From assembly GCA_964589175.1 (NCBI GenBank), contig CAZPRY010000015.1, positions 18,530-82,529 of the forward strand: 64,000 bases of DNA. The letters run 5' to 3'. The stretch comes from an uncultured bacterium. Its GTDB lineage: Bacteria; Fidelibacterota; UBA2242. Positions 1,808 to 28,139 of the stretch are shown in pieces. The notes beneath the pieces were generated by a model that did no database searches, had not been told where the DNA came from, and saw nothing but the letters and a program-made list of their open reading frames with translations. How positions within the stretch are numbered: the stretch's first letter is position 1; each line of letters opens with the position of its first letter. Position numbers and translations under genes: made by a program.

Positions 1808-4345
1808 ATGATGAAAACGACTTTGTTATTTTGCAGGCTGATGGCATTATTCCTTTTGTTTTCTATGCCGTTGCTGCTACAAGCACAATTACCCAGTGAA
1901 TTTACCTTCACTGATCCGATCGGTGATACCGAACCAGCATGTGTAGATTATGTCGGGGGCTATTTCGTTCAGCAAGGAGATAGTGTGCTGGTCGGTTTTA
2001 CTATGAATGGTCCGTTCTCTGACAGGGTGTACGGGGAGAGTCTGAACTCATTTACTCTCGATACGGACAGCGATCCTAACACGGGACAGTATCGTGGTAA
2101 TGAAGACAATGTTGATTTTCATGACTACGGAGGCGGTCACTGGTTTGGAAGAATGTATTTAGAGTGGGATGGCACCGTAAATTCATTTATGACGAGAGCA
2201 GTTGTACCCGTTAAAGTAACCGAAGACGGCAAAACCATGTACTGGAAATTTTCTCTGGTCGGTACCGGTTGGGAGGAATTGGAGTACTTTCTCGATGGAT
2301 GGTACAAAGATGGTAATTATTGGCATCAGGTACCCCACTTTGGGGGGGATATGATGGAAGAGCCGGGCCTCTTTACTATCGATGTATCCCTGGTTGCACA
2401 GCTGACAGAAAAAGTCGGCACCAATTGCGTCATCGAAGTTCCGGAACTTTACTCCTCAACTGCAGATGCGAAAAATATTACCGGCGTAGTCGATGAGATG
2501 GTGGATCTGGTTAGATCCCAAATCGGTACTATTGCAGAGAGTGACAGGAAATTCCGGGTGGATTATGAGAATTATAACAGCTATGCAGCGCCTATCGTTT
2601 ATGGATCTGGTGGCGTCAATCAATTTGGCTGCCGTATTCCCGGACAGTATTGGGTGGATGAGCCCAATTGGTACGCAATGTTAGAAGGTGTTGTAGATCA
2701 AACTCTTTGCGCATTCAGCACTGGATTGAGAGAAGTAATGCTAACGCAGAAGAGTTATCAGCGACCGATTCCCGTCAACGGGGAAGGTTGGTATTGCACC
2801 CTTGAAGATAGTATAAATGGCTTTAAATGGGATGCCCACCATAAATGGACGATGAAAGCATTGCTGGCGAATGCCTATGAAAATTGCTATGTATACTATA
2901 TTGCGGAGAGCATGACGGATGGGGCTGCTAAAACCGCGATTATGAACAAGAAGGCGGATATACTCGCGGCCTGGAATAACTTTTCCGGTACAGCCCGAGA
3001 TTTAACTCCTGAGTTAATGACCGGCTTACTTCTCTCCCTGTCCGATGATCTGAGTTGGACGGCTACCGTGTTCGAAGAGATTATCCCGAATGCCTTCGAC
3101 ACCGCAGATTCCACAAATGCTTTCACCCAGATTGTGAATAATTACACACGTAATTCTGATTTTTCAATCAGCAGTTCGGATGATTTTCTGACCCAGGCTC
3201 ATCATAGATGGTATGGTGTAATTGCAGCGGTTCAAGCGGCAGCGATTGAGCTGGCTATGGGCGAAGATCTTTACAGTGTACTGGAAGGAATACCGGATTT
3301 TCCGATCGATCAGGCTGTATATGCAGATGTCAAGAGTCTCTTAGGTCCAGGCGAAGATCCCTATAGCATTGATGATACTGTCCCATATGTATGGAATGAC
3401 ATCAGCACAATTGGCACGGAAATACCACGCGCTGATTTTACAGCACCTTGGGCTACGGTTGATGTCGATGACGGCGGTACCAGTCCGATTGCGATGGGAA
3501 TGAGTTTTGACTTTTATGATGCCACATTCGATAGTATCCGTATCGGTATTAACGGTATATGTTCGTTTACCGATCCTATTGAGTGGATTACTTCAGGAAG
3601 CTACGGAACGACGATTCCCGGTATGGGTTGGGATAATATTTTATGCCCACTTGCGTGTGATATTATGGGAGACAAAGCATATAATTCTGCTCCATATAAT
3701 ACAGCGACAGGTGTAATTTATTACTACCATAATTCTACTGCCGGTACCTTTACCGTTCAGTATCATAATATGACCAATCATCATTACGTAACTGGTGAAG
3801 AGGGCAGTCAGGTATGTCCGGATACGACTCTAACATTTCAGATCGTTCTGGACCCCAGCGATGCCTCCATTACCTTCTATTACAAGGATTTGGGTATTGC
3901 ACCGGAACCATGCGCGAAGCGGGCAACTATCGGAATTCAACCCGGGAAAGACAGCGGTCTGGGGTGTCAGTATTATGGCAACAACCTACCGGCGGATGGT
4001 TATCCCCAAAATGAAACAGCGATCAAGTTTTATAAGGGGGGAGTGGCCATTAAGGATGTCAATGTGAATCGACCTGGCGAATTTTCACTGATGCAGAACT
4101 ACCCGAATCCGTTTAACCCGGTTACCAGTATAGCGTTTACCATCCCGATGCGTACCAAGGTGAGTTTGGTGGTGTACGATATGCTTGGACGTAAAGTCGC
4201 CGATCTGGTTGAGAACCAAGTTGTCGACAGCGGATATCACAGCTACTCCTGGGATGCTTCCAATCTGTCTTCAGGTATTTATTTCTATCGTTTAGAAGTT
4301 GATGGGCAGAGCAGTCTGACCAAGAAATGCGTTTTTATGAAGTAA
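1808..4345 (+). CDS. Secreted multidomain protein: DPxGD (DOMON/glucodextranase-like) domain, degenerate gluzincin-like domain, nidogen-like domain, C-terminal T9SS-type sorting domain
   Basis: Signal peptide; TDPIGD; aligns with 4444-6207 but has EGVVD in place of HELGH; DDGGTSPIAMGMSFDFY...INGICSF (NIDO-like); QNYPNPFNP...YDMLGRKV...SGIYFYRL...KKCVFMK CTD; RBS GGAGG. Confidence 0.75.
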   Translation: MMKTTLLFCRLMALFLLFSMPLLLQAQLPSEFTFTDPIGDTEPACVDYVGGYFVQQGDSVLVGFTMNGPFSDRVYGESLNSFTLDTDSDPNTGQYRGNEDNVDFHDYGGGHWFGRMYLEWDGTVNSFMTRAVVPVKVTEDGKTMYWKFSLVGTGWEELEYFLDGWYKDGNYWHQVPHFGGDMMEEPGLFTIDVSLVAQLTEKVGTNCVIEVPELYSSTADAKNITGVVDEMVDLVRSQIGTIAESDRKFRVDYENYNSYAAPIVYGSGGVNQFGCRIPGQYWVDEPNWYAMLEGVVDQTLCAFSTGLREVMLTQKSYQRPIPVNGEGWYCTLEDSINGFKWDAHHKWTMKALLANAYENCYVYYIAESMTDGAAKTAIMNKKADILAAWNNFSGTARDLTPELMTGLLLSLSDDLSWTATVFEEIIPNAFDTADSTNAFTQIVNNYTRNSDFSISSSDDFLTQAHHRWYGVIAAVQAAAIELAMGEDLYSVLEGIPDFPIDQAVYADVKSLLGPGEDPYSIDDTVPYVWNDISTIGTEIPRADFTAPWATVDVDDGGTSPIAMGMSFDFYDATFDSIRIGINGICSFTDPIEWITSGSYGTTIPGMGWDNILCPLACDIMGDKAYNSAPYNTATGVIYYYHNSTAGTFTVQYHNMTNHHYVTGEEGSQVCPDTTLTFQIVLDPSDASITFYYKDLGIAPEPCAKRATIGIQPGKDSGLGCQYYGNNLPADGYPQNETAIKFYKGGVAIKDVNVNRPGEFSLMQNYPNPFNPVTSIAFTIPMRTKVSLVVYDMLGRKVADLVENQVVDSGYHSYSWDASNLSSGIYFYRLEVDGQSSLTKKCVFMK

Positions 4346-4355
4346 AAAGCGCTTG

Positions 4356-4389
4356 CAAGGTCGGGTGGCTGGGCAGCCACCCGACCTTG
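4356..4389 (+). terminator. Strong hairpin: intrinsic terminator or transcript-stabilising stem
   Basis: CAAGGTCGGGTGGCT-gggc-AGCCACCCGACCTTG, perfect 15-bp stem 10 nt after the stop at 4345, followed by gttttgtggttttatt. Confidence 0.75.
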
Positions 4390-4443
4390 GTTTTGTGGTT
4401 TTATTCTCAATTATATAATGAAAAATGTGGATTTCAAGCTGCG

Positions 4444-6207
4444 ATGATTGGATCATATAAAAAGAACATTCTGATCTTGCTAATGGTGCTATTGGCTGCA
4501 GCGTTTCCAATAGTCTCACAGACCATTGAGGATCCAATCGGCGATGTTTCGACAGGCCATCCCGACTATGTGGATTTTGAAAAAGTAAAATTTTGGCAAT
4601 CCAGTGGTCAACCGGATGCAATGTATATTGATTTTTATACGAAGGGCGCCATCCCGAAAGGGAATCAGGCCGGAATTGGTGCAACTACAATCTTTGAAGT
4701 TTACATGGATGTTGATGATAACAGTAATACCGGCGTCAAGTTGGAGGATATCGGATACGATTATAAACTGTTTGCCAATCTCTACGATTGGAACGGGAAA
4801 AACTGGATCGACGGAACGGTTTACTGGGATTATGATGCCTCTGGCTCAGCGCATTCCCTGAGTGGATTTTATACTTTTGCCGAGGGTAATCCAAGATCTA
4901 CGGCGCCTTATCGATTCAGATGGGAATTTTCGCTAATCGGTTTGAAGTGTTCCCGGATCAAATGGATAGCAAGAACAAAATATGGCGTCTATTGGTCGGA
5001 TCAAATTCCCGATGAGGGACATGCTATCCTGGAGGTTGACACGACTGGTGTGGCGGATATTGATACCGTTCGGGGGGAACATATTGAATTCATTTGTCCA
5101 TCGACCTATAAAGAAGTCCTGGAGAGATGTGATGTCATCAAAGCCATTGACCTGGGAACTCAGATTCAGAGTCAGCTGTGTGGCACCGAATTTCACGGTA
5201 TCCAGGTTATCCAATATAATCCGTGGATGCATGGTGTCGCTTCTTGTGGCAATCCCGTAGATATGGGCTCATGGATGTGGAACGATAATCCGCCATGGTT
5301 TGTTGTTTTTCATGAATTAGGTCATAACTATACTCTGGCGGCGGATCGATTTAATAATCTATACCCTGCGCTTGGTTATGACACACTAATGGGGGGAGAT
5401 AATTGGGATTATGGAACGAACTATGTAGAAGCCTGGGCGAGCATGGTGGGCCTCTTTGCAGTCCATGAACTATTCAGCAAGAGTGGGCAGTATCAATTAA
5501 CAACCGAGGGTGCAGCAAGTCTGGAGCAGGGATTTAACGATCAAAAAAATTCATTTATGGGACAACTTCAAGGTTATGAGGAAGATCCCAATTTCCATAT
5601 TCTGACTCCCGATTTATTGGACGGTATGTTTATGTCTCTGGGGGAGGAGTACGGATATGAGATATTCCCTCGATTTTTCAGGATACTGCAGCCTCCGGAT
5701 CAATCCTGGGACGTTCTCACCGTTGTTAAAAATAATGTGAGAAGTAACTACGATCTGTCGAAAACGGTGGCAATGACTGTCACTTGTTGCGCCTTCAGCG
5801 TGGCAGCGGGAGCGGATCTCCGCACTCAGTTCAGGGATCAATGGGATTTCCCGATTGACAACGAGAAATATGAAGAGATCAAGCCGGAAATTGAGGCCAT
5901 GATGATGACCGGCGTCGACGAAAACCCGGGATTAGCGGATAAGATGCAGTTTAGGCTTTATCCCAACCATCCCAACCCTTTTAACTCGAGCACGATTATC
6001 AGTTACCAAATTGGACAACAATCAGAAGTAAGAATAAAAATTTATGACCTGTTGGGAAATCTGGTCAGGATTATAGATGAAGGTCATAGAAATGCCGGAG
6101 ATCATCATTTTATCTGGGACGCTTCAAATATTTCCAGTGGAATCTATATCTATTCTGTAGAAACCAACCAGGGGGTGAAGGCTAAAAAATGTGTATTCCT
6201 AAGATAA
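4444..6207 (+). CDS. Secreted gluzincin-like (HExxH) metallopeptidase with DPxGD domain and T9SS-type CTD
   Basis: Signal peptide from MIGSYKKNIL (the ORF-track start at 4327 overlaps the previous gene and hairpin); EDPIGD; WFVVFHELGHN plus downstream EAWA; PNHPNPFN...SGIYIY CTD. Confidence 0.8.
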   Translation: MIGSYKKNILILLMVLLAAAFPIVSQTIEDPIGDVSTGHPDYVDFEKVKFWQSSGQPDAMYIDFYTKGAIPKGNQAGIGATTIFEVYMDVDDNSNTGVKLEDIGYDYKLFANLYDWNGKNWIDGTVYWDYDASGSAHSLSGFYTFAEGNPRSTAPYRFRWEFSLIGLKCSRIKWIARTKYGVYWSDQIPDEGHAILEVDTTGVADIDTVRGEHIEFICPSTYKEVLERCDVIKAIDLGTQIQSQLCGTEFHGIQVIQYNPWMHGVASCGNPVDMGSWMWNDNPPWFVVFHELGHNYTLAADRFNNLYPALGYDTLMGGDNWDYGTNYVEAWASMVGLFAVHELFSKSGQYQLTTEGAASLEQGFNDQKNSFMGQLQGYEEDPNFHILTPDLLDGMFMSLGEEYGYEIFPRFFRILQPPDQSWDVLTVVKNNVRSNYDLSKTVAMTVTCCAFSVAAGADLRTQFRDQWDFPIDNEKYEEIKPEIEAMMMTGVDENPGLADKMQFRLYPNHPNPFNSSTIISYQIGQQSEVRIKIYDLLGNLVRIIDEGHRNAGDHHFIWDASNISSGIYIYSVETNQGVKAKKCVFLR

Positions 6208-6279: not shown

Positions 6280-9261
6280 ATGAAAAGCAAATATTTTAGC
6301 TATTTTCTAATCATCCTACTGATGATAACATCATCTACCCTAGTTTTTGCCGGTACAAAGGGCAAGATTGTCGGGCTTATTGTAGAGAAGGAGACCGGCC
6401 AACCACTGCCGGGCGCCAACATCGTTTTAGAGGGCACCTTGCTCGGCACAATGACCGACGTAGACGGACACTACTTTATCTTGAATATCCCGAGCGGAAC
6501 CTACTCCTTGAAAGTCAGCTATATAGGGTACAGCCCGGTAACCGTCAAGAACGTAGAAGTCATTCAGGATTTGCTTACCGAAATAAATGTTGAAATGCAA
6601 TCCAAGGTACTTGATATCGGTGTGGCGGTAGAGGTATATGCTGAACGTCCTCTGATCCATAAAGAGGTTTCTTCTTCCACCAGGACATTGTCTTCCGAAG
6701 AATTCGAAAATCTGATTGTGGAATCCGTTGGTTCAGTCATAAATACATCGGCGGGCGTTGTAGGCGGTAACTATATTCGGGGCAGCCGCTGGACAGAAGT
6801 CAGTTATATGGTGGATGGCCTATCGTTGACCAATCCGATTAGCGGCGGCATGATCACCGATATCAATAAGAATGCGGTGGAAGAGATTGTTTTACAGACG
6901 GGGGGATTTTCCGCAGAGTACGGAAATGCCATGGGCGGTATCGTCAATGTCGTCACCAAAGAGGGCGGTCCCGAGTACAGCGGGAGTCTGCGCTACAAAA
7001 CCGATAAAGTGAATTCGGGCAGTCAATTCTATCAGAACGCCAATATCTGGGATTTTACTTTTGGCGGTCCGATGGTAAAGAAGGGAAGAATATTTTTCAC
7101 CGGCTATCTGAATACCCGCGATATGAATTCCCAGCGAGAAGTGATCGCGCCGGACGGTACCAATCTCGGTCGCCATCCCCACGAAGGTTTTCAGGAATAC
7201 CGCACCAATTTCAAATATTCTCTGCCTGTCACATCCTCCCTGAAACTGAAAATGACCTGGTCAATGAACAGATCGCAAGGTCTCAACTATAATATGTTTT
7301 GGCGTTTTGGTGCCGATGAAAATCAATTGGATCGCTTGGGGGCCTGGTTGAATAAATCGAAATATGGCGCAATTATTCTGGAGCATGCCATCAGCTCCAG
7401 AGCCTACCATACGCTTAAAGTAGGGATGATGGATTGGCATTCGATCAGCGGACAGCGCGACCGTGCAGAATGGTCGGGGAATAAGGTAGGCGCCAATTGT
7501 GACTGGTGGAAAGATTTCACCTTCCGCAAACCCTTTATCGATCACAATTACCAGATACCCGGGGATGCCACCGGTACTCAATACAGTAAGTGGCGTTTGC
7601 GTGACAGTCAGGGCATAGATGATGTTTATCAGAGACGAACAACCGATTTGGTATCGCCAAGTAATCCTTATGGAATCACGGGCGGTATTCAAAATACAAT
7701 GGATGCTGATTATTTTGAAAATTTCATCTGGGCCGGCGATGGCGACTGGTTTTCAGAGAATCGAGACCGCAATTTCATCGTGAAATACGATCTGACCAGC
7801 CAGATCCATAAAAATCATGAGATCAAGGCTGGATTTGAGTTTAACAAGCACAACGTCAATCGCTTCGCGATCGGAGCAATGTCCGCTCTGAATGGTATCG
7901 GCGTCACTTACCCGCTTATCGATTTTTATGAAGAGTCGCCGAGCGATACGGCCTTGACAATTGAATCTGTCAATGATTTGGGTGATGGGTACCGGCCCCT
8001 GGAGTTCGCATCTTACGTCAACTACCAGCTTCAATTGGAGGGCATGTATTTGAATCTTGGATTGCGTTTTGACTATTTTAATGCAGTCACAGAATATCGT
8101 ATTGATCCGATTCAAAGCACTCCGTCAAATCCGTTTAAGCAAGACCGGACGAATCCCGATCCAAAATACCAATTAAGCCCGCGCTTAGGAATATCATTTC
8201 CGGTCACGGACAGGACGATGTTTAGATTTAACTACGGGCACTTTTTCCAAACTCCTCCGCTGGAACGGATGTTTGCGTACCTATGGTTTGATCGGAATCA
8301 GGCTGATTTAAACATGGGCAATCCTGATATTGAACCCCAAAAAACGATCGCCTATGAAGTAGGCCTCTCAACAATTTTAACCGAAAATGTCGCTTTGGAT
8401 CTTACTCTTTATCAGAAAAATATGTTTAACCTGGAAGGTTACAGGATCAGAAGATCTCCTACTTTAGACTGGTTTTTCCAGGCCTTCAATGAGGAATATG
8501 CTGAAGCCAAAGGCTTTGAACTCACTTTACGAAAGCGATACAGCCATTACTTTGGGGGCTCGATCAGTTATTCGTTCTGCACGGCTGAAGGTACTTCGTC
8601 CGATGTAACCCAAATTACGCGATACCCATTGCTGAGTCTCACCTATGCCAGACTATTGGGATATGAACCGCTTTATCCTCAGGATACTATGCCGATGGAT
8701 TTTGATCAAAACCACACGGTTTATATTAATCTGGACTTCAGAATCCCGTATGGCGAGGGACCTAGTATATTCAATAAAAAGCTGCTCTCCGGTTTTGGAG
8801 CAAATATCATGTCGACCTTTCATTCGGGCAGACCCTATACCCCGGTCACGGCATATACGATGAATGTCACCAGTGACCGTTTCAACTCAGCGCGTTATCC
8901 GTGGACATACACTGCCGACGGCAAATTTTACAAGGATTTTCGAATCCTGGGTCAAGAATTGACCTTGTTTGTAGAAGTATACAATCTGTTCAATTTACAA
9001 AAGCCGTTTTCCGTCTTTGAAGGTTCGGGCAATCCTGATCAGGATATGTACAATCTGACCGCAGGTTGTCTTTCCTCCGATACCTACCTGAAAGGAGAGA
9101 GTAATCTGTATTCCGAGTTGGCGGATTTGAATGGTGATGGCGCTTTGACGACGCAGGAGCGCGTAGTTGCATATCAGCGCTTTCGGGATGATATGTTGAA
9201 GTTCAAAAGAAATTATCCCAACCCCAGAACATTCATGATTGGCCTGGATATTAAATTTTGA
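6280..9261 (+). CDS. TonB-dependent receptor with N-terminal carboxypeptidase-regulatory-like domain
   Basis: Signal peptide, GKIVG...PLPGANIV...TDVDGHYFILNIPSGTY, plug (YIRGSR, YMVDG, GGFSAEYGNAMGGIVNVVTK), barrel motifs SPRLGISFP and GNPDIEPQKT, C-terminal NPRTFMIGLDIKF. Confidence 0.93.
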   Translation: MKSKYFSYFLIILLMITSSTLVFAGTKGKIVGLIVEKETGQPLPGANIVLEGTLLGTMTDVDGHYFILNIPSGTYSLKVSYIGYSPVTVKNVEVIQDLLTEINVEMQSKVLDIGVAVEVYAERPLIHKEVSSSTRTLSSEEFENLIVESVGSVINTSAGVVGGNYIRGSRWTEVSYMVDGLSLTNPISGGMITDINKNAVEEIVLQTGGFSAEYGNAMGGIVNVVTKEGGPEYSGSLRYKTDKVNSGSQFYQNANIWDFTFGGPMVKKGRIFFTGYLNTRDMNSQREVIAPDGTNLGRHPHEGFQEYRTNFKYSLPVTSSLKLKMTWSMNRSQGLNYNMFWRFGADENQLDRLGAWLNKSKYGAIILEHAISSRAYHTLKVGMMDWHSISGQRDRAEWSGNKVGANCDWWKDFTFRKPFIDHNYQIPGDATGTQYSKWRLRDSQGIDDVYQRRTTDLVSPSNPYGITGGIQNTMDADYFENFIWAGDGDWFSENRDRNFIVKYDLTSQIHKNHEIKAGFEFNKHNVNRFAIGAMSALNGIGVTYPLIDFYEESPSDTALTIESVNDLGDGYRPLEFASYVNYQLQLEGMYLNLGLRFDYFNAVTEYRIDPIQSTPSNPFKQDRTNPDPKYQLSPRLGISFPVTDRTMFRFNYGHFFQTPPLERMFAYLWFDRNQADLNMGNPDIEPQKTIAYEVGLSTILTENVALDLTLYQKNMFNLEGYRIRRSPTLDWFFQAFNEEYAEAKGFELTLRKRYSHYFGGSISYSFCTAEGTSSDVTQITRYPLLSLTYARLLGYEPLYPQDTMPMDFDQNHTVYINLDFRIPYGEGPSIFNKKLLSGFGANIMSTFHSGRPYTPVTAYTMNVTSDRFNSARYPWTYTADGKFYKDFRILGQELTLFVEVYNLFNLQKPFSVFEGSGNPDQDMYNLTAGCLSSDTYLKGESNLYSELADLNGDGALTTQERVVAYQRFRDDMLKFKRNYPNPRTFMIGLDIKF

Positions 9262-9345
9262 GAATGCAGTGTGCTGTAGATACAGATCACGAAATAGACT
9301 CCTGTTGGAGCTAGTGAAGTAGTTACAAAAAAGGGGAAGTGCATT

Positions 9346-12138
9346 ATGAGTTCTAAACAAATTACTAGATCAATTATGCCCGCGATTATGGTTCTTTTAT
9401 TTATTGGGCTGTGTATAAATGATTTGAGGATATGGGCACTGCCAAAAGACAACCGATCTTTAGATAAAATCACTATACATGATTTACGGCATATCTATGC
9501 CCGATATGATATTCCAATTGCTAATGACGGTCGTTTTGGCTGGGATCCGACGGCACAAACTCCCGGTGGCGGTATATGGCTGCGCGGAACCAATGAAGGA
9601 TATATTTTTGGCGCAGGCATCTGGATCGGTGCTAAAGTTGATGGGCGTAAACAGGTCACCGTCGGTTATAACACATCGAACTGTCAGACGGAATTGGTGC
9701 CGGGAAATCTTCCGAACGAACCGGGCTATACCGATCCGTCCGAAATTATTTTTGTAAGTACGGACTATCCCAATGCAGCTTTACCGCCATGGCCCGGTGG
9801 CTACGGCCAAGACGGGAATCCTATTGCTTTTTCCCAGATGGATTCCTGGTGTCAGTGTAATGATTTGGACGCTTCCCGGCAATTCGAGGCCGGCAAGCCG
9901 CTGGGCATTTTACTGACCGCCGAAACCTACTCCTGGACCAGCAGTTTCCGGGATGTGTGGGATATTGCCTTCGTTAAATATACCGTGAAAAATATCAATC
10001 CCGATCAGAAAACATTGGAAGACGCCTATATTGGTTTTGCTATGGATCCCGATATCGGTGATCCGACCAATGATTTGACAGGCTGCTTTCCCGATTTGAA
10101 TATTGGCTTCGCCTATAGTGCGGAGGAATTATCGGGCATAGAGAAAGACTTAGAGCATCCGCCCGGATATGTGGGCATCAAGTTTCTTGACGGACCGGCT
10201 AAGGATCCGGTTACCGGTGAGGCGAAAATGTCTTGCTTTCGTCGTTGGGCAACAGATCCCAGTACAGATGAGATGCGGTACGATTTACTGTCGGAAGAAT
10301 ATTATGATCTGGAAGATACCGAACCGGCTGACAAACGGATATTCTTATCCTCCGGTCCGTTCAATCTGGCCTATGGCGAATCGACCACCTTCGTGGTAGC
10401 GATGTGTTTCGCCTGGCCCATGTGGTACATCGATTCATCGGTCAAAGGGCAGCCGGAACATTACGCGGATTATCTGAAATTGGTCGCGGAAAACGCGCAG
10501 TTTGTTTATGATAATAACTATAGATTCCCACAGCCTCCGAATATGCCGCGGATTCGACTGAATCCCCAGGATCAGAAGATCATCGTGATCTGGGACAATA
10601 AAGCCGAAGAAACTGTCGAACGGATTCTCTCCTTGCCGGACTTCTCCGATTCATTGGACTTTGAAGGCTACAAACTCTGGAAAAGTACGACCGGCGATGA
10701 GGGCAGTTTCGAGATGCTGGGGCAATGGGACAAAGTAAGTTTTGACGATTTAGGCAATCCGATCGGTAAGAACACGGGCCTGGCGCACAGTTATGTCGAT
10801 GAGGATCTGATCAACGGGAAACTCTATTTCTACGCGGTCACTGCCTACGATAAGGGGGAATATCAACCGCTGGGCTATGGCGATCCCGAGTTCGAGGTTG
10901 TGCCTCCCATGGAAACGGGCACGGTTTTTGGCGTCAACCTGAACGCGGAGACTCCGAATTCACCACCCTCCAACTTCACCGAACCGCAGATGGAAGGATT
11001 GGAGCTAATCGCAGGCGACGCGGATGAGCTTCAGTTTATCGTCAGTCCCGAATATCTGATAGCGGACAGCGTGAAGAATAAGACCTTCCAGATACGATTC
11101 TCCGGTTTGCCGAGTTTCCGATACGATAAAGAAGTATCGGTTTACGGACCCGATATTTATCTTGTTAATACGGCAACGGAAGACACGGTCGTCAGCACCC
11201 TGAATTTTCCGATAGGCAGTCCGGCTGCAACGGTCAAGTCAGACCTGTTTGATGGGATGCTGTTGAGTTACACGGGTCCGAATATCCTGTTGAATGCAAT
11301 CGATACGGCCTACTTCAAGCAGGCGAAGACGGGCGTGACGATCCATCCGGAAACGGATTATGAGACCTATAATACCCCCCAAACAAGCATACCGCTGGAT
11401 TTACCGTACGGGGCCTATTTCCTACCGCATGAGTACTTGATCGAGTTTTATGAAGTTGCCGGTAAAAGAAGGGTGAATGTCTACGATCTGGACAACGGCG
11501 ATACATTGCAATACGAGGCCAAGTCTTTTGGTCGCGATTTTGCACTGGCCAGTTTTGAGAAGGTTGTCGCATCTGTGGATCCGGTTTCGGGGGATACGAC
11601 CTGGACCTGGTACAATAATCCGGTGGATTTCAGGAACAGTCTGTCCAATGAAGCGGGTGGTTACAAGATTTACGTACCGGGCGCCTTTATCTTTGTAGAA
11701 GACCCGGGTCATGAGGTGGTTGCGGGAGATTCACTGATTGTGAGACTTTCCGGGGTAAGTGCACCTCGGGGAGGGGATGTGTATCAATTTTCAACGGTGG
11801 CGAGCCAGGTGAATTATCATACCCAGTTGGATGTCAAAGTGGTTCCCAATCCCTATCTGGTGCGGGCGGCCTGGGATATCGATAATGATTACCAGAAGGT
11901 CCAGTTTATTAATCTGCCGACGGAATGCACAATCAGAATCTATACGATAGCGGGCGATCTGGTGCAGACAATCCATCACGGAGCACCGTACGGAACGGGC
12001 TTCGATAGTGAGACCGGGGGGACGGCCTTCTGGAATTTGATGACCCGTAATAATCAGAAAGCATCCACGGGAGTGTATGTCTTTTATCTCGATTCTCCTT
12101 TCGGAAAAGATGTCGGAAAGTTCGCAATCATTAGATAG
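9346..12138 (+). CDS. Large secreted protein with a fibronectin-III-like region and a VVPNPY-type C-terminal sorting-like domain; TBDR partner
   Basis: Signal-like N-terminus; DFEGYKLWKS...YVDEDLINGKLYFYAVTAYD (FN3-like); VKVVPNPY...FINLPTECTIRIYTIAGDLV...WNLMTRNNQKASTGVY...GKFAIIR. Confidence 0.7.
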   Translation: MSSKQITRSIMPAIMVLLFIGLCINDLRIWALPKDNRSLDKITIHDLRHIYARYDIPIANDGRFGWDPTAQTPGGGIWLRGTNEGYIFGAGIWIGAKVDGRKQVTVGYNTSNCQTELVPGNLPNEPGYTDPSEIIFVSTDYPNAALPPWPGGYGQDGNPIAFSQMDSWCQCNDLDASRQFEAGKPLGILLTAETYSWTSSFRDVWDIAFVKYTVKNINPDQKTLEDAYIGFAMDPDIGDPTNDLTGCFPDLNIGFAYSAEELSGIEKDLEHPPGYVGIKFLDGPAKDPVTGEAKMSCFRRWATDPSTDEMRYDLLSEEYYDLEDTEPADKRIFLSSGPFNLAYGESTTFVVAMCFAWPMWYIDSSVKGQPEHYADYLKLVAENAQFVYDNNYRFPQPPNMPRIRLNPQDQKIIVIWDNKAEETVERILSLPDFSDSLDFEGYKLWKSTTGDEGSFEMLGQWDKVSFDDLGNPIGKNTGLAHSYVDEDLINGKLYFYAVTAYDKGEYQPLGYGDPEFEVVPPMETGTVFGVNLNAETPNSPPSNFTEPQMEGLELIAGDADELQFIVSPEYLIADSVKNKTFQIRFSGLPSFRYDKEVSVYGPDIYLVNTATEDTVVSTLNFPIGSPAATVKSDLFDGMLLSYTGPNILLNAIDTAYFKQAKTGVTIHPETDYETYNTPQTSIPLDLPYGAYFLPHEYLIEFYEVAGKRRVNVYDLDNGDTLQYEAKSFGRDFALASFEKVVASVDPVSGDTTWTWYNNPVDFRNSLSNEAGGYKIYVPGAFIFVEDPGHEVVAGDSLIVRLSGVSAPRGGDVYQFSTVASQVNYHTQLDVKVVPNPYLVRAAWDIDNDYQKVQFINLPTECTIRIYTIAGDLVQTIHHGAPYGTGFDSETGGTAFWNLMTRNNQKASTGVYVFYLDSPFGKDVGKFAIIR

Positions 12139-12281
12139 AAAAGAGTCACCATTCTGGAATATTTTGACAGGAACAATATGATATTCGGGATACTCGAACG
12201 ACAATTAAATATTTTTCAGCGTGGTTATCCGGCAAGTCCCGGTCAAGGAAGATTACAATTTGTAAGAGAGTGAGGTACGAT

Positions 12282-13277
12282 ATGAGCGAAAGAATTAAAA
12301 TCATCGTCGCATTATTATTATTGTCAGTCCTGACTCCTGCCCGGCAGATAGATAATAAAGTCGGAACAGCGGGTTTTCAGTTTTTGAAGTTGGGAGTGGG
12401 AGCCCGGGAGATTGCATTAGGTGGAGCGAATACTGCAATGCCGGAAGGGCCAACAGCCATGTACTGGAATCCTGCGGGTATTTGCCTTGACGATAAAAAA
12501 AGCGCCACATTTTTCAACAACAGCTGGATTGCGGCTATTAATCACAATTTTGTCGGATTTAAATCACCTGTCTCCACCAGCGGATATTTCGGAGCCTCTG
12601 TTAATTTTATCACCATGGATGATATGGAAGAAACCACGATTCTACAACCCCAAGGTACAGGTAGAAAATTTACCGCATCTGACTTCGCGATTACGGCAAC
12701 TTATGGCCAACGAATCACGGATCGCTTCGGTGCGGCAATTTCCGCAAAATACGTCAATGAGACGATTTGGGATATGGTATCCGATGGGTGGGCTTTTGAT
12801 GTAGGCTTCATCTATAATTATAACAAATTACACATCGGGATGTCCTTCATCAACTTCGGAGTCGAAAAACAGATTTCGGGGGATCAGTTGCAATTGGAAT
12901 ATCAGATTTTCCCTGACTATAAGACGGATGATGTACTTTTAGAACATGTGGCGAACGAAATTCGTCTCCCCACCAGTTTTCGATTTGGGGCCGGATACGA
13001 TATCTTGAAAATGAACTATCACAAACTGGCGATAATGGGTAGTATCAACTACTTCAACGATATTGGACAAAATAGCAGCGCCGGTTTGGAGTATAAATTT
13101 ATGGAAAACTATATCCTGCGGGGCGGATATCAATTTAATCGCGATGGATTTGATTGGAGTGTGGGTGCAGGGGTTCGGTTTCATATAAAAAATACAGCCT
13201 TTGAGTTCGATTACGCAGCGCTGAACCTTCAGGATTTTGGTCTCCAGTCTCAGACCGGTCTATCGATTTCATTTTAG
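12282..13277 (+). CDS. PorV/PorQ-family (FadL-like) outer-membrane beta-barrel
   Basis: GTAGFQFLKLGVGAREIALGGA, AMYWNPAG, GLEY...LRGGY, FEFDYA, terminal aromatic F. Start set at the ATG after GAGG (ORF track gives GTG 12270). Confidence 0.88.
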   Translation: MSERIKIIVALLLLSVLTPARQIDNKVGTAGFQFLKLGVGAREIALGGANTAMPEGPTAMYWNPAGICLDDKKSATFFNNSWIAAINHNFVGFKSPVSTSGYFGASVNFITMDDMEETTILQPQGTGRKFTASDFAITATYGQRITDRFGAAISAKYVNETIWDMVSDGWAFDVGFIYNYNKLHIGMSFINFGVEKQISGDQLQLEYQIFPDYKTDDVLLEHVANEIRLPTSFRFGAGYDILKMNYHKLAIMGSINYFNDIGQNSSAGLEYKFMENYILRGGYQFNRDGFDWSVGAGVRFHIKNTAFEFDYAALNLQDFGLQSQTGLSISF

Positions 13278-13342: not shown

Positions 13343-14215
13343 ATGCAGAACAAACAAATAATGGATAAGATTGCCATCTCCGGAACCGAGTTTCCTTTCC
13401 GGCCGATCGAAGAGGTCTACGCCATGGCCAAGTATTTGGGCGTACCTAACCTGGAATTGTGGATTCCTCACAATTTTGAATATGCCGATCTCGCCCAGGT
13501 GAAATCAGATTTGGAAAGACTCGAACTGAGCACTATATGCGTCTCAACCTGGACGCAATTAAACCTGCCGGGTAACGTGAGCCAGAGACAGGCTCTGATA
13601 ATTCGCAGCATCAAAGCCGCAAAGGAACTCGGAGCTTCAATTGTAAACACTTATTTCGGCGCCGATTCCATGAAGACGCCGGAACAAGCCCTGCAGGCCT
13701 ATAAAGATAATATTTCTCCGTGCCTGGAATTGGCAGAGAAAGAAGATATTACGATTGTGCTGGAGAATGAATTCGATCCCAGCGGGGTCGATCCAACGCG
13801 AAGCGCAGATTTCGTTTTGGAACTTGTGCAGGCCATCAATTCAACGAAGTTCAGACTGACCTTCGATGGCTGCAATTTCTATTTTGCGGGTGAGGAACCT
13901 TACCCCTACGCCTATAATCTGTTACGGGACTATATAGGCTATGTCCATATTAAAGACGGAATGAAATACCATAAAGATCTCTATGCGGAACCTGGCGAAG
14001 GCTTCCTGTGGCAGGATAAATCCGGAGATTATATCTGTTGTGAGATGGGAACGGGAGCAATTCCGTATTCATCGCTTATCGAGCGTCTGCTGACAGATGG
14101 CTATGACGGATATTTGACAATGGAGCCACATATTCATCCCAATCAACTGAAAGAGATCTTCCAGAAAAACGTATCCAATATGATTCAAGTACTAAAACAA
14201 GGAGAATATCGATGA
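13343..14215 (+). CDS. Sugar phosphate isomerase/epimerase (xylose-isomerase-like TIM barrel)
   Basis: VLENE, LTFDGCN, YVHIKD, GTGAIPY, LTMEPH metal motifs. Confidence 0.88.
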   Translation: MQNKQIMDKIAISGTEFPFRPIEEVYAMAKYLGVPNLELWIPHNFEYADLAQVKSDLERLELSTICVSTWTQLNLPGNVSQRQALIIRSIKAAKELGASIVNTYFGADSMKTPEQALQAYKDNISPCLELAEKEDITIVLENEFDPSGVDPTRSADFVLELVQAINSTKFRLTFDGCNFYFAGEEPYPYAYNLLRDYIGYVHIKDGMKYHKDLYAEPGEGFLWQDKSGDYICCEMGTGAIPYSSLIERLLTDGYDGYLTMEPHIHPNQLKEIFQKNVSNMIQVLKQGEYR

Positions 14216-15204
14216 AAGCCGCAGTCCTGCACGAACCGATGCATTTGTCAATCGAAGATGTTCCGGATCCTAAATGCGGTCCGGATGAATTATTAATTAA
14301 AGTTCATCGTTCTGCAATATGTAACTCTACTGATACTCATATTTGGAATGGAACCTTTCGCCCCTATGCAACCCCTAAATTTCCGCATATTCTTGGTCAT
14401 GAGTGCTGCGGAGAAGTCGTGGAAGTGGGTAAAGAATGCACAAAGGATTATAGGGTAGGTGATCGTCTTGGATTTTGGGTCAAAATGACCGGAGGATTTG
14501 CTGAATACAATGCTATTAAACCAAATAGCCTCGGTATTTGTAAACTAAAGAATGATATGAGCTATGATGAGGGAGCGCTGTTAGAACTGGTATGCGGTAC
14601 GATTCGACTGGTCTATGATTCCGGTCTACATATAGGAGATAAAGTTTTAATGTTAGGGCAAGGACCAGCCGGTTTGTTTTTAGCTCAGGAAGCAAGATTA
14701 GCAGGTATCGATAAATTGTATACGGTGGATTTATATGCTAATCGTCTAGCTAAATCCAAAGAACTTGCAGCCGATGATACCTTGAATTTGGATGGTAAAA
14801 GTTATGGGGAAGCATTTGATATCCTCAGCCAGATGATTGGTAAGGTAGATGTCGTTATCGATGCAATGGGAGATAATAGGTGGACACAGGGAAATTCCAT
14901 TGATTTGGCACTGAATCTGTTAAAACGACACGGAAAATATATCATTTTTGGACATCGTGGTAAGAATGATTCTATTAATACCCAACTTATCAGTAATGAA
15001 GATATCACGATGAGAGGGTTTGAACCCGGATTAATTAAAACAAAAGAACTTACTGATTTCACTGTTGAATTAGTTTCATCGGGAAGAATAAGAGCCGCAG
15101 AACTCATCACCCATCATTTTCCCTTGGTTGATCTGGAGAAGGGTCTGCATAAATGTCTCCATGATTTGCATGAAACCATCAAGGTGATTATCAATATCGC
15201 ATAG
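14212..15204 (+). CDS. Zinc-binding (MDR) sugar/polyol dehydrogenase
   Basis: SAICNSDTH, LGHECCGEV, GQGPAG Rossmann motif, ITHHFPL; ATGA overlap with the previous gene; no 4-Cys structural-zinc loop. Confidence 0.88.
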   Translation: MKAAVLHEPMHLSIEDVPDPKCGPDELLIKVHRSAICNSTDTHIWNGTFRPYATPKFPHILGHECCGEVVEVGKECTKDYRVGDRLGFWVKMTGGFAEYNAIKPNSLGICKLKNDMSYDEGALLELVCGTIRLVYDSGLHIGDKVLMLGQGPAGLFLAQEARLAGIDKLYTVDLYANRLAKSKELAADDTLNLDGKSYGEAFDILSQMIGKVDVVIDAMGDNRWTQGNSIDLALNLLKRHGKYIIFGHRGKNDSINTQLISNEDITMRGFEPGLIKTKELTDFTVELVSSGRIRAAELITHHFPLVDLEKGLHKCLHDLHETIKVIINIA

Positions 15205-15272
15205 TTTTCAATCCGTGCATTATATCGACGGGTCTGTTTGAGATAAGTAAATAGTTTTTAAATTATACAAAA

Positions 15273-16178
15273 ATGGTACTCAGATTGTTTGGAACGAATA
15301 GTATTCAAAAAGAGAAAATTGCCGGTTATTGTTTTCTGTCTCCCAATCTGCTGGGATTCCTGATCTTTAGTTTTTTGCCAATAATTGCCAGCCTGTTTCT
15401 TACCTTTACCCGCTGGAATCTGGCCACTAATCCCAAATTTGTAGGGATTGAGAATTTCGTCAATGTCTTGAAGGATGAACTGTTCTGGAAATACCTCTGG
15501 AATACTTTTTATTATGCCATCGGGACCATACCGTTGACGATTATTCTGTCCTTTTTTTTGGCGTATATGCTGAACAGAAAAATTCACGGTGTAATATTCT
15601 TCCGCACGTTGTATTTTCTGCCCAGCGTAACCCTGCTGGTTGCCATTGCGATTGTTTGGTCATGGTTATATAATGCCGATTTCGGATTGTTTAATTATCT
15701 GCTTGGAAAATTAGGTATAACCGGTCCCCGCTGGCTGCAAAGCAAAACCTGGGCGATGCCGGCAATTATTATTATGAGTATCTGGAAAGGTACCGGCTAT
15801 TCCATGTTGATCTTCCTGGCCGGATTGCAGGGTATCCCGGAACGGTATTATGAAGCGGCCGAAATTGACGGAGCCAACTGGTGGCACAAAATAACTCATA
15901 TAACGATTCCGTTAATCTCACCCACGACCTTCTTTGTGCTGGTCACTACTTCGATTGGTGCCATCCAGGGTTTCGACCAATTTTACATCATGACCCGCGG
16001 CGGTCCTTCCGGGGCGACAACGACTCTGGTATATTATATTTTTCAAAATGCTTTCGAGTGGTTTAAAATGGGATATGCTGCCACGATCGCTTTGATGCTG
16101 TTCATCATCGTTCTGGGCTTAACTCTTTTCCAGTGGCGTTTCGCCCAAAAATGGGTTTACGATGAAGGGATGGAATGA
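15273..16178 (+). CDS. Carbohydrate ABC transporter permease (CUT1, MalF-like)
   Basis: FVGIENF, FFRTLYFLP, LAGLQGIP..YYEAAEIDGA (EAA motif), GYAA. Confidence 0.95.
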   Translation: MVLRLFGTNSIQKEKIAGYCFLSPNLLGFLIFSFLPIIASLFLTFTRWNLATNPKFVGIENFVNVLKDELFWKYLWNTFYYAIGTIPLTIILSFFLAYMLNRKIHGVIFFRTLYFLPSVTLLVAIAIVWSWLYNADFGLFNYLLGKLGITGPRWLQSKTWAMPAIIIMSIWKGTGYSMLIFLAGLQGIPERYYEAAEIDGANWWHKITHITIPLISPTTFFVLVTTSIGAIQGFDQFYIMTRGGPSGATTTLVYYIFQNAFEWFKMGYAATIALMLFIIVLGLTLFQWRFAQKWVYDEGME

Positions 16179-16184
16179 TCCAGT

Positions 16185-17027: not shown

Positions 17028-17074
17028 CCGCCAGTCAATGAAAACCTAAACCAGAATTTGCAGGGACTATTGAA

Positions 17075-18451: not shown

Positions 18452-18472
18452 AGGAAATCGTAATCTTTTTTA

Positions 18473-19984: not shown

Positions 19985-20007
19985 TGCAATGCAAATGGGA
20001 ACAGGAA

Positions 20008-23038: not shown

Positions 23039-23062
23039 GAAAACTCTTTAAAGGAAGATATA

Positions 23063-27587: not shown

Positions 27588-28139
<552 letters not shown>

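What the first reader, a model, noticed from the sequence alone, without database searches (positions are those of the whole stretch)
6280..13277. SusD-less uptake module: TonB receptor + CTD-bearing partner + dedicated PorV-like barrel
Seen: the TBDR is followed not by a SusD lipoprotein but by a 930-aa protein with no lipobox and a PNPY-type C-terminal domain, then a PorV/PorQ-family barrel. Four more CTD proteins lie in the same locus. Established: PorV binds T9SS CTD cargo at the cell surface in Bacteroidetes. Inference: a locus-specific PorV tethers the CTD protein as the lid or capture subunit of the transporter, an alternative PUL architecture I know of no experimental description for.
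Basis: partly seen in the sequence, partly recalled or inferred. Interest (0 to 1): 0.62.

Follow-up and report, generated by a model that had tools for sequence, protein, structure and literature searches.

The report
SusD-less TonB receptor, partner, PorV-like barrel
Three adjacent genes (an outer-membrane TonB-dependent importer, an unannotated 920-residue all-beta secreted protein with a special secretion-type tail, and that protein's own PorV-like barrel) form a unit that is repeated about 24 times in this genome and conserved across many relatives of the Bacteroidetes, and it probably does the sugar-capture job that SusC/SusD does in Bacteroides, though nobody appears to have described or tested it.

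Summary
Window 6280-13277 encodes three genes:
- T, a 993-aa TonB-dependent receptor.
- P, a 920/930-aa secreted protein with no Pfam domain, no lipobox and a PNPY-type C-terminal domain.
- V, a PorV/PorQ-family barrel.
Four ordinary type-A CTD proteins lie in the same mannose/glycoprotein-type sugar locus. The genome has no SusD.

T-P-V is a conserved module, not a chance neighbourhood.
- This genome has 24 such receptors, all with a P-family gene beside or near them, and about 20 with a barrel in cis.
- The three parts diverged as units (Mantel r 0.6-0.8).
- The same order recurs in every complete foreign locus I read. Those loci carry MAG labels of Neomarinimicrobiota/KSB1, Caldithrix, Ignavibacteriaceae, Eiseniibacteriota, Zixibacteria, WOR-3 and Rhodocaloribacter.
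- A 0.97-Mb genome keeps exactly one triad, next to GH109, a symporter and a sugar kinase.

The P tails form their own CTD subclass. The barrel is closer to PorV than to FadL in sequence and fold. SprA and PorU are present.

Best reading (0.55): the T9SS exports P, the private barrel holds its uncleaved tail as PorQ holds PorZ, and P captures substrate for the receptor. Physical contact and a "lid" role are untested. I found no paper describing it.

The parts
6280..9261 (+). T: TonB-dependent receptor, 993 aa. Signal peptide, N-terminal CarboxypepD_reg-like extension (aa 30-112), Plug (aa 128-221), large barrel ending in ...GLDIKF.
   Evidence: Pfam and NCBIfam. It is one of 24 paralogs of this subfamily in the genome. 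SusC/RagA TIGR04056 scores only 56 bits against a cut-off of 368.
9376..12138 (+). P: 920-aa secreted all-beta protein (an alternative start at 9346 gives 930 aa). No Pfam family, and a signal peptide without a lipobox.
   Evidence: AF2 model: pLDDT 84, pTM 0.68. Foldseek finds FN3 arrays, the N-terminal beta-sandwich of GH116/GH94-type enzymes and PorU. At least 4,375 clusters at 50% identity match the family profile at E<=1e-30.
9478..10515 (+). P N-terminal beta-sandwich domain (about aa 35-380 of the 920-aa form). It carries the most conserved body motifs (W139, D163, D233, GPF.L..G) and is the candidate ligand-binding part.
   Evidence: Secondary structure and pLDDT. Invariant columns. 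Local fold matches to non-catalytic N-domains of GH116/GH94. In a recent tandem P duplicate on contig C4, only the N-terminal half has diverged.
10543..10875 (+). P fibronectin-III-like domain (DFEGYKLYKS...NG.LYFYAVTAYD), conserved in all paralogs.
   Evidence: Consensus of A1 and A3. FN3 matches.
11812..12135 (+). P C-terminal sorting-type domain, about 108 aa. It is a PNPY-type variant of the T9SS type-A CTD with two low-confidence insertions.
   Evidence: A subclass HMM scores 88-131 bits for all 28 P-family proteins and at most 43 bits for more than 100 ordinary CTD proteins. Pfam Por_Secre_tail hits 0 of 16. There are weak matches to the PorZ and PorU C-termini.
12282..13277 (+). V: PorV/PorQ-family outer-membrane barrel, 331 aa (a GTG start at 12270 gives 335 aa).
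   Evidence: NF033709 scores 157.9 bits against a cut-off of 90. The PorQ equivalog scores 89 and the PorV equivalog 59, both below their cut-offs. AF2 model: pLDDT 88. Best fold matches are PorV 8gl6_F and 6h3i_F, TM 0.69.
1808..4345 (+). Type-A CTD protein, 845 aa, upstream in the same locus. Presumed ordinary T9SS cargo.
   Evidence: Por_Secre_tail E 1.7e-10.
4327..6207 (+). Type-A CTD protein with an HExxH motif. The true start is probably downstream of the hairpin at 4356-4389.
   Evidence: Por_Secre_tail E 3.2e-10. Hairpin.
21431..23038 (+). Type-A CTD protein with a weak C25-peptidase match.
34265..35941 (+). Type-A CTD protein.
   Evidence: Por_Secre_tail E 2.7e-9.
13343..45058 (+). 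Downstream catabolic genes that give the sugar-locus context. They include a xylose-isomerase-like TIM barrel, a Zn-ADH, ABC sugar permeases with a binding protein and a MalK-type ATPase, GH38, GH42, GH130, DUF2961, a lyxose-isomerase-like gene, a PfkB kinase, an M28 peptidase, amidohydrolases and an MFS sugar porter.
2..1171 (+). Sigma-54-dependent response regulator at the head of the locus (5' end cut by the window).

Best explanation
T, P and V are one outer-membrane uptake module, the counterpart in these SusD-less lineages of the SusC/SusD core of a polysaccharide-utilisation locus.

Proposed mechanism, with the status of each step:
1. P crosses the inner membrane by Sec. This follows from its signal peptide without a lipobox, seen in the sequence.
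2. P's C-terminal sorting domain takes it through the T9SS translocon. This is inferred: SprA and PorU are present, and SprA is present in all 15 triad genomes tested.
3. P is not handed to the general PorV/PorU route and clipped. Instead its tail, a private CTD subclass, stays bound to the locus-encoded PorV-like barrel V. V thereby anchors P on the cell surface. This is inferred by analogy with PorQ holding the uncleaved CTD of PorZ, PorV holding that of PorU, and PorP/SprF barrels serving type-B cargo (PMC10202324).
4. P's non-catalytic beta-sandwich and FN3 body binds the locus's substrate and presents it to T, which imports it with TonB energy. Here the substrate is probably a mannose-rich glycan or glycopeptide. 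This step is inferred from gene context only.

What is shown: the three genes are inherited, duplicated and diverged as a unit, across several named lineages and about 24 times within this one genome.
For: - Copies in this genome. There are 24 T paralogs, all with a P-family gene beside or near them. About 20 have a V in cis, in the orders T-P-V, T-P-P-V or T-V-P.
- Co-divergence. Distance matrices of 17 triads correlate: T~V r=0.81, T~P body 0.78, V~P tail 0.60, each with p<=2e-4.
- Synteny elsewhere. The order is kept in all complete foreign loci, whether reached from P or from V (Zixibacteria, WOR-3 and Rhodocaloribacter).
- Spread within the phylum. The P family is in 121 of 121 genomes and 53 of 53 genera sampled.
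- Minimal case. A 0.97-Mb single-contig genome keeps exactly one triad. It lies directly after GH109, an SSF symporter and a galactokinase-like kinase.
- Private tail. The P tail is a distinct CTD subclass: 88-131 bits against at most 43 bits for ordinary CTDs. The numbers fit one barrel per module: 28 such tails and about 20 triad barrels, against more than 100 ordinary CTD proteins and one PorV candidate.
- Nature of the barrel. V is PorV-like, not FadL-like. Its best fold match is PorV in the CTD-bound T9SS complex 8gl6. The triad barrels sit apart from the genome's PorV, PorQ and PorV2 candidates.
- Nature of P. It has no catalytic domain. The model is all-beta, with sandwich and FN3 folds.
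- Genome background. There is no SusD. SprA and PorU are present, and SprA is found in 15 of 15 triad genomes tested.
- Neighbours. Genes next to the triads are CAZymes, sugar regulators, sugar transporters and type-A CTD proteins.
Against: - There is no direct evidence of any T-P, P-V or T-V contact. No multimer prediction, proteomics or expression data could be obtained.
- Co-divergence shows co-inheritance, not binding. The partial correlation of V with the P tail, after removing T, is weak (0.19).
- Three T-P pairs in this genome lack a barrel in cis.
- Loci with two P genes share one barrel, although their tails can be only 37% identical. Strict one-tail-one-barrel specificity is therefore doubtful.
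- The Zixibacteria and WOR-3 triads are not obviously in sugar loci, so the cargo may not always be glycan.
- T is not a SusC/RagA member by the curated model.
- PorL, PorM and PorN were not found. The GldM model was silent, and a weak GldK-like hit lies at a contig end.
- The support for a single clade of triad barrels is moderate (78/87).
Confidence: 0.55

Rival explanations
1. V is only a dedicated secretion adaptor. It acts as a private shuttle that takes P out of the SprA translocon, as SprF does for SprB. P is then released or attached elsewhere and works as a free or LPS-linked binding protein or enzyme. T is merely co-regulated with it and forms no complex.
For: - Cognate PorV-like barrels for particular T9SS cargo are an accepted idea (PMC10202324).
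- PorU is present.
- Several T-P pairs lack a barrel in cis.
- Two P genes can share one V although their tails have diverged.
Against: - T and P are the tightest pair of the three genes. Every T has a P-family gene at hand. Gaps are 20-40 nt in many loci, for example in L078.
- T co-diverges with V even more strongly than P does (r=0.81). That is hard to explain if T is only a co-regulated neighbour.
- More than 100 ordinary CTD proteins in this genome manage without a private barrel.
Confidence: 0.2
2. The triad is an export or display machine rather than an importer. [quoted passage not shown] V receives P at the surface, independently of the T9SS.
For: - T has the Oar architecture: a CarboxypepD_reg extension, a Plug and a barrel, with PF25183 over its cut-off.
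- The P tail fails the curated T9SS CTD models.
Against: - SusC-type importers share the same N-terminal architecture (PMC6434023), so it does not tell export from import.
- SprA is present over its cut-off in 15 of 15 triad genomes tested, including six genomes of about 1 Mb.
- The P tail is homologous to type-A CTDs. Its HMM picks up more than 100 C-terminal CTDs.
- The loci carry inner-membrane sugar transporters and cytoplasmic catabolic enzymes, as expected for import.
Confidence: 0.08
3. P is a new kind of surface enzyme, a glycanase or peptidase with an unrecognised active site, rather than a binding subunit. T imports its products.
For: - P has invariant acidic residues (D163, D233, E411).
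- Its N-domain resembles domains attached to glycoside hydrolases and phosphorylases.
- In the recent tandem duplicate, the N-terminal half is the part that has diverged.
Against: - The fold matches are to the non-catalytic N-terminal sandwiches of GH116 and GH94, not to their catalytic (alpha/alpha)6 domains.
- No family model of any enzyme matches P or 16 of its paralogs.
- The loci already encode separate secreted type-A CTD enzymes.
Confidence: 0.12
4. V is an ordinary FadL-type channel for a hydrophobic or small solute and has nothing to do with P's tail.
For: - PorV belongs to the FadL superfamily.
- FadL and TodX appear among the fold matches (TM 0.52-0.57).
- Some V homologues carry faint Toluene_X hits.
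Against: - PorV is the only PDB sequence match and the best fold match (TM 0.69, E 2e-14, against about 1e-8 for FadL).
- The NCBIfam PorV/PorQ family model is passed.
- V is always next to a protein with a sorting-type tail.
- About 20 copies of a fatty-acid channel, each beside a receptor, would be hard to explain.
Confidence: 0.03

Closest known systems
SusC/SusD (RagA/RagB) core of Bacteroidota polysaccharide-utilisation loci
   Same: - A TonB-dependent receptor with a CarboxypepD_reg-type N-terminal extension is followed directly by the gene for a surface-exposed partner.
- The pair is embedded in loci with CAZymes, regulators and inner-membrane sugar transporters.
- It is present in many paralogous copies per genome.
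   Different: - The partner is not SusD. No SusD_RagB is found anywhere in the genome.
- The partner is not a lipoprotein and is not alpha-helical/TPR. It is 600-1,300 aa of beta domains.
- The anchor is proposed to be a separate PorV-like barrel plus a sorting-type tail, so there are three genes instead of two.
- The receptor fails the SusC/RagA model (56 bits against 368).
PorQ-PorZ and PorV-PorU pairs of the T9SS attachment complex
   Same: - A PorV-family barrel is paired with a T9SS cargo whose C-terminal domain is retained and used as the anchor (PMC10202324).
- P's tail gives weak matches to the PorZ and PorU C-termini.
- V scores higher on the PorQ model than on the PorV model.
   Different: - Here the pair is not part of the secretion machinery. 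It is multiplied about 20-fold and wired to nutrient receptors.
- V passes neither the PorQ nor the PorV equivalog cut-off.
- The genome has separate PorV and PorQ candidates.
PorP/SprF-family barrels encoded next to type-B CTD proteins (e.g. SprF-SprB of Flavobacterium johnsoniae)
   Same: The principle is the same: a locus-encoded, cargo-specific PorV-like barrel next to the gene of its cargo, whose CTD is probably not cleaved (PMC10202324).
   Different: - The barrel family differs. The PorP_SprF Pfam match of V is only E 0.008.
- The tail class differs: it is type-A-like, not type B.
- No TonB-dependent receptor is involved in the SprF-SprB case.
Oar of Myxococcus xanthus (TonB-dependent transporter required for PopC secretion)
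   Same: The receptor domain architecture is the same, and PF25183 matches (PMC6434023).
   Different: Oar has no P-like or PorV-like neighbour described, and Myxococcus has no T9SS (from my own knowledge). The direction of transport here is unknown, and context favours import.
BamG-BamH of the Bacteroidota BAM complex
   Same: A 14-stranded FadL-superfamily barrel serves as a permanent platform for surface-exposed proteins through its extracellular loops (PMC12578637).
   Different: BamG holds lipoproteins and sits on BamA. It ranks well below PorV as a fold match to V (TM 0.47).

Membership tests
SusC/RagA TonB-linked outer membrane protein (TIGR04056) | Whole-protein score over the curated cut-off (368 bits) | tested here: not met
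   56.1 bits, matching only aa 30-230 (the N-terminal extension and Plug).
SusC/RagA TonB-linked outer membrane protein (TIGR04056) | A SusD/RagB-family lipoprotein gene immediately downstream | tested here: not met
   The downstream gene has no Pfam family. PF07980 gives 0 matches in the whole genome, while the control rings in B. thetaiotaomicron.
TonB-dependent transporter with Oar/SusC-type N-terminal extension | CarboxypepD_reg-like domain, Plug and a 22-strand-type barrel | tested here: met
   PF13715 and PF13620 (aa 30-112), PF07715 (128-221), PF00593, and PF25183 at 61.6 bits against a cut-off of 30.
PorV/PorQ family (NF033709) | Score over the curated cut-off (90 bits) | tested here: met
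   157.9 bits. 23 loci in the genome pass.
PorV proper (NF033710 equivalog) and PorQ proper (NF033711 equivalog) | Score over the equivalog cut-offs (250 and 220 bits) | tested here: not met
   PorV 59.4 bits, PorQ 88.9 bits. Other genes are better candidates: C7:65501-66724 for PorV (192 bits) and C1:199253-200173 for PorQ (153 bits). These also fall below the cut-offs.
PorV/PorQ family | PorV-type fold rather than a FadL-type transport channel | tested here: met
   AF2 model with pLDDT 88. Foldseek gives PorV 8gl6_F (E 2.3e-14, TM 0.69) and 6h3i_F (TM 0.69), against FadL/TodX at E about 1e-8 and TM 0.52-0.57. The only PDB sequence hit is PorV.
PorV/PorQ family | Binds the C-terminal domain of a T9SS cargo | not testable with these tools
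   No multimer prediction or experimental data were available.
T9SS type-A C-terminal sorting domain (PF18962 / TIGR04183) | Match to the curated domain models | tested here: not met
   No hit for P at E<=0.01. 0 of 16 P-family paralogs hit PF18962.
T9SS type-A C-terminal sorting domain (PF18962 / TIGR04183) | Homology to type-A CTDs, a position at the extreme C-terminus, and the PNP...G.Y...K motif order | tested here: met
   An HMM of P tails picks up the C-termini of more than 100 ordinary CTD proteins at 12-43 bits. There are weak matches to the PorZ and PorU C-termini. The motifs are visible.
T9SS cargo | A T9SS is present in the same genome | tested here: inconclusive
   SprA is present (806 bits summed) and PorU scores 772 bits, over its cut-off. 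PorV and PorQ candidates exist. The GldM model was silent, and only a weak GldK-like hit was found, at a contig end. SprA is present in 15 of 15 other triad genomes.
Polysaccharide-utilisation locus (functional sense) | An outer-membrane receptor and a surface partner co-located with CAZymes, a regulator and inner-membrane sugar transport | tested here: met
   GH38, GH42, GH130, DUF2961, an ABC and an MFS sugar transporter, kinases, isomerases and a sigma-54 activator lie in one same-strand block. Other triads sit beside GH43, GH13, GHL10 and LacI/GntR regulators. A minimal version with GH109, SSF and a kinase is in L078.

The most novel reading that the evidence does not exclude
The triad is a stable three-protein outer-membrane machine and a previously unrecognised class of TonB-dependent importer. 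The T9SS delivers its capture subunit. A private PorV paralog docked to the receptor then holds that subunit permanently by an uncleaved, dedicated sorting domain. This would be the general SusD-independent form of glycan and nutrient capture across these SusD-less relatives of the Bacteroidota, from 1-Mb streamlined cells with one copy to this genome with about 24. It would also show that PorV-like barrels serve widely as surface-protein anchors, replacing lipoprotein export.
Probability: 0.35. Interest if true: 0.85.

Novelty: new variant of a known kind. Interest (0 to 1): 0.68.

Why it matters
Models of how bacteria take up polysaccharides rest on SusC/SusD of the Bacteroidota. Large, environmentally abundant sister lineages lack SusD yet carry many CAZyme loci. 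Going by the MAG labels of the loci read here, these include Marinisomatota/KSB1-type, Calditrichota-, Ignavibacteria-, Zixibacteria-, WOR-3-, Eiseniibacteriota- and Rhodothermota-type bacteria.

If T-P-V is their capture-and-import core, several things follow.
- It supplies a marker for finding their utilisation loci. The P family alone has at least 4,375 clusters at 50% identity and no Pfam model.
- It gives the T9SS a second role: installing permanent parts of importers.
- It extends the idea that a cognate PorV-like barrel keeps a CTD uncleaved from two machinery proteins (PorZ, PorU) to a very large protein family.

This genome is a good place to study the module. It holds about 24 diverged copies side by side, which allows specificity-swap experiments and co-variation analysis.

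Tried and rejected
I used the single protein instead, which found 12 orthologous loci, and reached distant taxa through the look-up of encoding contigs.
No expression or co-transcription evidence could be obtained.
- The GldM model gave nothing anywhere, including the controls, so it says nothing about absence. The GldK model gave only a weak hit at a contig end. The motor and ring genes are unresolved.
- Foldseek on the whole P model gave only local, low-TM matches. These are enough to say 'beta-sandwich plus FN3, no catalytic domain' but not to name a ligand.
- The promoter and terminator scans were at chance level, so they give no operon evidence beyond same-strand close spacing.
- Rejected: V as a plain FadL channel.
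- Rejected: P as a lipoprotein. The residue before the lone Cys is Leu, and the N-terminus is not conserved among orthologues.
- Rejected: the EF-hand-like loop DLNGDGALTTQE of T as a general docking site. It occurs in this receptor only, not in the 23 paralogs.
- Rejected: strict 1:1 tail-barrel specificity.
- Genome counts of P per genome across the phylum could not be correlated with V counts, because the tool scores only 7 candidates per genome.
- Seven full-text literature searches found no description of the triad.

Full report
THE OBSERVATION

ORF listing and family scans confirm the three genes, all on the + strand.

T (6280-9261, 993 aa) has a signal peptide, a CarboxypepD_reg-type N-terminal extension, a Plug and a TonB-dependent barrel. 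PF25183 is over its cut-off. T matches the SusC/RagA model only in its first 200 residues (56 bits against a cut-off of 368).

P (9346-12138) matches no Pfam family. The copy in the protein database starts at Met11, i.e. 9376, giving 920 aa. Its only NCBIfam hit is a weak match of aa 819-920 to the C-terminus of PorZ. The signal peptide has no lipobox. The tail carries VVPNPY, FINLP.ECTIRIYT.AGDLV, GVYVFYL and GKFAIIR.

V (12282-13277) passes the PorV/PorQ family model (158 bits against 90). It passes neither the PorV nor the PorQ equivalog.

Four further proteins of the locus carry ordinary Por_Secre_tail domains: 1808-4345, 4327-6207, 21431-23038 and 34265-35941.

The rest of the same-strand block is a sugar-catabolic locus headed by a sigma-54 activator. 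It holds GH38, GH42, GH130, DUF2961, lyxose-isomerase-like and PfkB genes, ABC and MFS sugar transporters, peptidases and amidohydrolases. The whole genome has no SusD_RagB match, while the control genome B. thetaiotaomicron rings.

IS THE TRIAD A UNIT?

The window lies on contig C15 of a 4.43-Mb, 114-contig genome that is 93.5% complete. That genome has 23 loci over the PorV/PorQ cut-off.

Iterative searches with the window's three proteins against all ORFs gave the following:
- 24 receptors of the T subfamily.
- 29 P-family proteins, one of them cut by a contig end.
- 25 V-family barrels.
- Every T has a P-family gene at hand. In 23 of 24 cases it is directly adjacent.
- 19 T have a V in cis, and a twentieth V is cut by a contig end.
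- Three T-P pairs (C1b, C9, C67) have no V nearby.
- The gene orders are T-P-V, T-P-P-V, T-V-P and V-T-P.

For 17 complete triads, the pairwise distance matrices of the parts are strongly correlated, although the copies are old (mean identity 22-36%). The values are T~V r=0.81, T~P body 0.78, V~P body 0.68 and V~P tail 0.60, all with Mantel p<=2e-4. The modules therefore duplicated and diverged as units. This shows co-inheritance, not contact. The partial correlation of V with the tail, given T, is only about 0.19.

SYNTENY ELSEWHERE

P has 812 word-index relatives. All are 'hypothetical' and none has a Pfam domain. A full scan of 1.84 billion cluster representatives gives 4,375 at E<=1e-30.

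I read the neighbourhood in four distant homologues' contigs, and all four show T-P-V. One of them sits among GH16, GH2 and GH3 genes.

Twelve orthologous loci from species-representative genomes all show T-P-V or T-P-P-V wherever the contig allows. Their labels are Neomarinimicrobiota, Caldithrix, Ignavibacteriaceae, 'Bacteroidetes bacterium' and one mis-binned 'archaeon'.

I then started from V instead (35-38% identity). Contigs labelled Zixibacteria, WOR-3 and Rhodocaloribacter each have T, a 986-1,161-aa P-family protein with the same tail subclass, and V.

Within the window's own phylum, the P family is present in 121 of 121 sampled genomes and 53 of 53 genera.

A streamlined 0.97-Mb single-contig member has exactly one triad, with gaps of 30 and 22 nt. 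It follows GH109, a sodium:solute symporter and a galactokinase-like kinase, which amounts to a minimal sugar-utilisation locus. MAG labels are unreliable, so I name no phylum for the window. Its closest labelled relatives are called KSB1 and Marinimicrobia.

THE PARTS

P. An AlphaFold2 model built on 63 homologues is confident (pLDDT 84, pTM 0.68) and almost entirely beta. In the 920-aa numbering it reads:
- a large N-terminal sandwich, about aa 35-380;
- a helix, then an FN3-like domain that is conserved in all paralogs;
- further beta domains, absent from the roughly 700-aa paralogs;
- a C-terminal sandwich of about 108 aa with two disordered insertions.

Foldseek finds FN3 arrays, the non-catalytic N-terminal sandwiches of GH116- and GH94-type enzymes, and PorU. 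It finds no catalytic fold. No enzyme family matches P or 16 of its paralogs.

An HMM of the P tails separates two populations cleanly. All 28 P-family proteins score 88-131 bits. More than 100 ordinary CTD proteins of the genome score at most 43 bits, and their matches lie at their C-termini. The tail is therefore homologous to type-A CTDs but forms its own subclass. The curated type-A models miss it (0 of 16).

V. The only solved structure matching by sequence is F. johnsoniae PorV (E 2.5e-8). The AF2 model (pLDDT 88) matches PorV best. The top hit is chain F of 8gl6, the CTD-bound T9SS complex (E 2e-14, TM 0.69). FadL and TodX follow at TM 0.52-0.57, and BamG at 0.47.

The genome also has a better PorV candidate (C7), a PorQ candidate (C1:199253) and two PorV2-like genes, one beside a second PorU-like gene. 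In a tree the 19 triad barrels fall on one side of a branch, with moderate support of 78/87.

The T9SS. SprA (2,092-aa frame, 806 bits summed) and PorU (772 bits) are present. PorL, PorM and PorN could not be settled. SprA is over its cut-off in 15 of 15 other triad-bearing genomes tested. These include six genomes of about 1 Mb and the Zixibacteria- and Eiseniibacteriota-labelled genomes.

MECHANISM

The best-supported reading is an uptake module.
- P is exported by Sec and the T9SS.
- Its dedicated tail remains on the locus's own PorV-like barrel, which anchors P at the surface.
- P's beta-sandwich and FN3 body captures the substrate for T.

The anchoring step has a precedent in the literature. 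PorU keeps its CTD and stays on PorV, and PorZ keeps its CTD and stays on PorQ. A review proposes that cognate PorV-like barrels protect CTDs from cleavage, as also suggested for PorP/SprF with type-B cargo (PMC10202324). A FadL-superfamily barrel acting as a permanent platform for surface proteins is also seen in BamG (PMC12578637).

Shown here: the modular inheritance, the tail subclass, the PorV-like nature of V, the absence of SusD, the sugar-locus context, and the presence of SprA and PorU.

Inferred: T9SS dependence, retention of the tail, every protein-protein contact, and the direction of transport.

The word 'lid' is not supported. P does not look like SusD.

Points against a strict version of the model are the three T-P pairs without a barrel in cis, two P genes sharing one barrel with tails only 37% identical, and non-sugar contexts in Zixibacteria and WOR-3.

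RIVALS

(a) V is only a private secretion adaptor, and P is then released. This is possible, but T co-diverges with V more strongly than P does.

(b) T exports P, as Oar is needed for PopC secretion (PMC6434023). The N-terminal architecture does not discriminate, because SusC-type importers share it. SprA always co-occurs with the triad, and the loci carry inner-membrane importers.

(c) P is an unrecognised enzyme. No catalytic fold or family supports this.

(d) V is a FadL-type channel. Sequence, fold and context all count against it.

NOVELTY

Seven full-text searches found no paper that describes a TonB-dependent receptor coupled to a CTD-tailed partner and a PorV-like barrel.

Earlier notes of this scan describe the same trio in at least 28 other genomes and reach similar readings. 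They are AI notes and I did not use them as evidence. Everything relied on here I tested myself.

What this window adds:
- the largest in-genome expansion I know of, about 24 modules, which allowed the co-divergence test;
- the clean separation of the tail subclass;
- the one-copy minimal locus in a 1-Mb relative;
- the SprA co-occurrence test;
- the fold test of PorV against FadL.

VERDICT

The feature is real and widespread, and to my knowledge it is undescribed. Its parts are of known kinds, combined in a new architecture. My confidence in the proposed mechanism is 0.55, and my interest score is 0.68.

Noticed in passing
window 4356-4389: A perfect 15-bp, GC-rich hairpin followed by a T-rich stretch lies just after the stop of the 845-aa CTD gene. 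It sits inside the mechanically called start of the next ORF (4327). It is probably a terminator or attenuator, and the true start of the second HExxH/CTD gene is probably further downstream (MIGSYKKNILIL...).
   Followed up: partly
window 9124-9159 (T aa 949-960): The EF-hand-like loop DLNGDGALTTQE near the C-terminus of the receptor occurs only in this copy. None of the 23 paralogous receptors has such a motif. It is therefore not a general docking site for the partner protein.
   Followed up: yes
own genome C4:118986-125581 (L035:5987-12582): Two tandem P genes are 100% identical from about residue 520 to the end, tail included. They are only 63-87% identical in the N-terminal half. This could be a recent duplication or gene conversion with divergence confined to the N-terminal sandwich, or an assembly collapse. 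If real, it points to the N-domain as the part that sets specificity.
   Followed up: partly
own genome C31:23742-29731 and C90:7746-8864: There is a second PorU-like gene (1,660-1,671-aa frame, 237+99 bits on the PorU model) directly beside a PorV2-like barrel, and another PorV2-like barrel on C90. This may be a second sorting or attachment system.
   Followed up: no
own genome C1:12504-14346, next to SprA at C1:18823-24831: Two tandem, divergent PorV/PorQ-family barrels (303 and 306 aa) lie a few kb from the SprA translocon gene. Between them and SprA is a 523-aa protein with a CTD-like tail.
   Followed up: no
L078 (G071:C1:58000-77000), 2007-13833: A 0.97-Mb single-contig genome of the same phylum keeps one triad in a compact block of GH109, SSF symporter, galactokinase-like kinase, T, P and V. 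It looks like a minimal GalNAc/galactose-type uptake locus and a simple test system.
   Followed up: partly
own genome C1:142757-148007, C9:46880-52111, C67:6253-11536: Three T-P pairs, all of the roughly 700-aa P subgroup with the IFTERGDL tail motif, have no PorV-like barrel downstream. Unrelated genes follow instead: an MFS-like gene, a methyltransferase-like gene, an XdhC-like gene and a regulator. They may borrow a barrel encoded elsewhere.
   Followed up: partly
own-genome triad flanks (L035-L054): PPIC-type rotamase (SurA-like) genes flank two triads. LacI- or GntR-type regulators flank several others.
   Followed up: no
window 46000-52000: A low-GC block (0.32-0.36) with reversed GC skew lies on the minus strand and interrupts the sugar locus.
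   Followed up: no
long P paralogs, e.g. L038:2495-5782 and L039:8670-12275: The P paralogs of about 1,100-1,300 aa carry runs of acidic repeats of the DGIDNDGD / DNDDDW / GEGDG type in the middle of the protein. These resemble thrombospondin-type-3 calcium-binding repeats. They are absent from the window's P.
   Followed up: no
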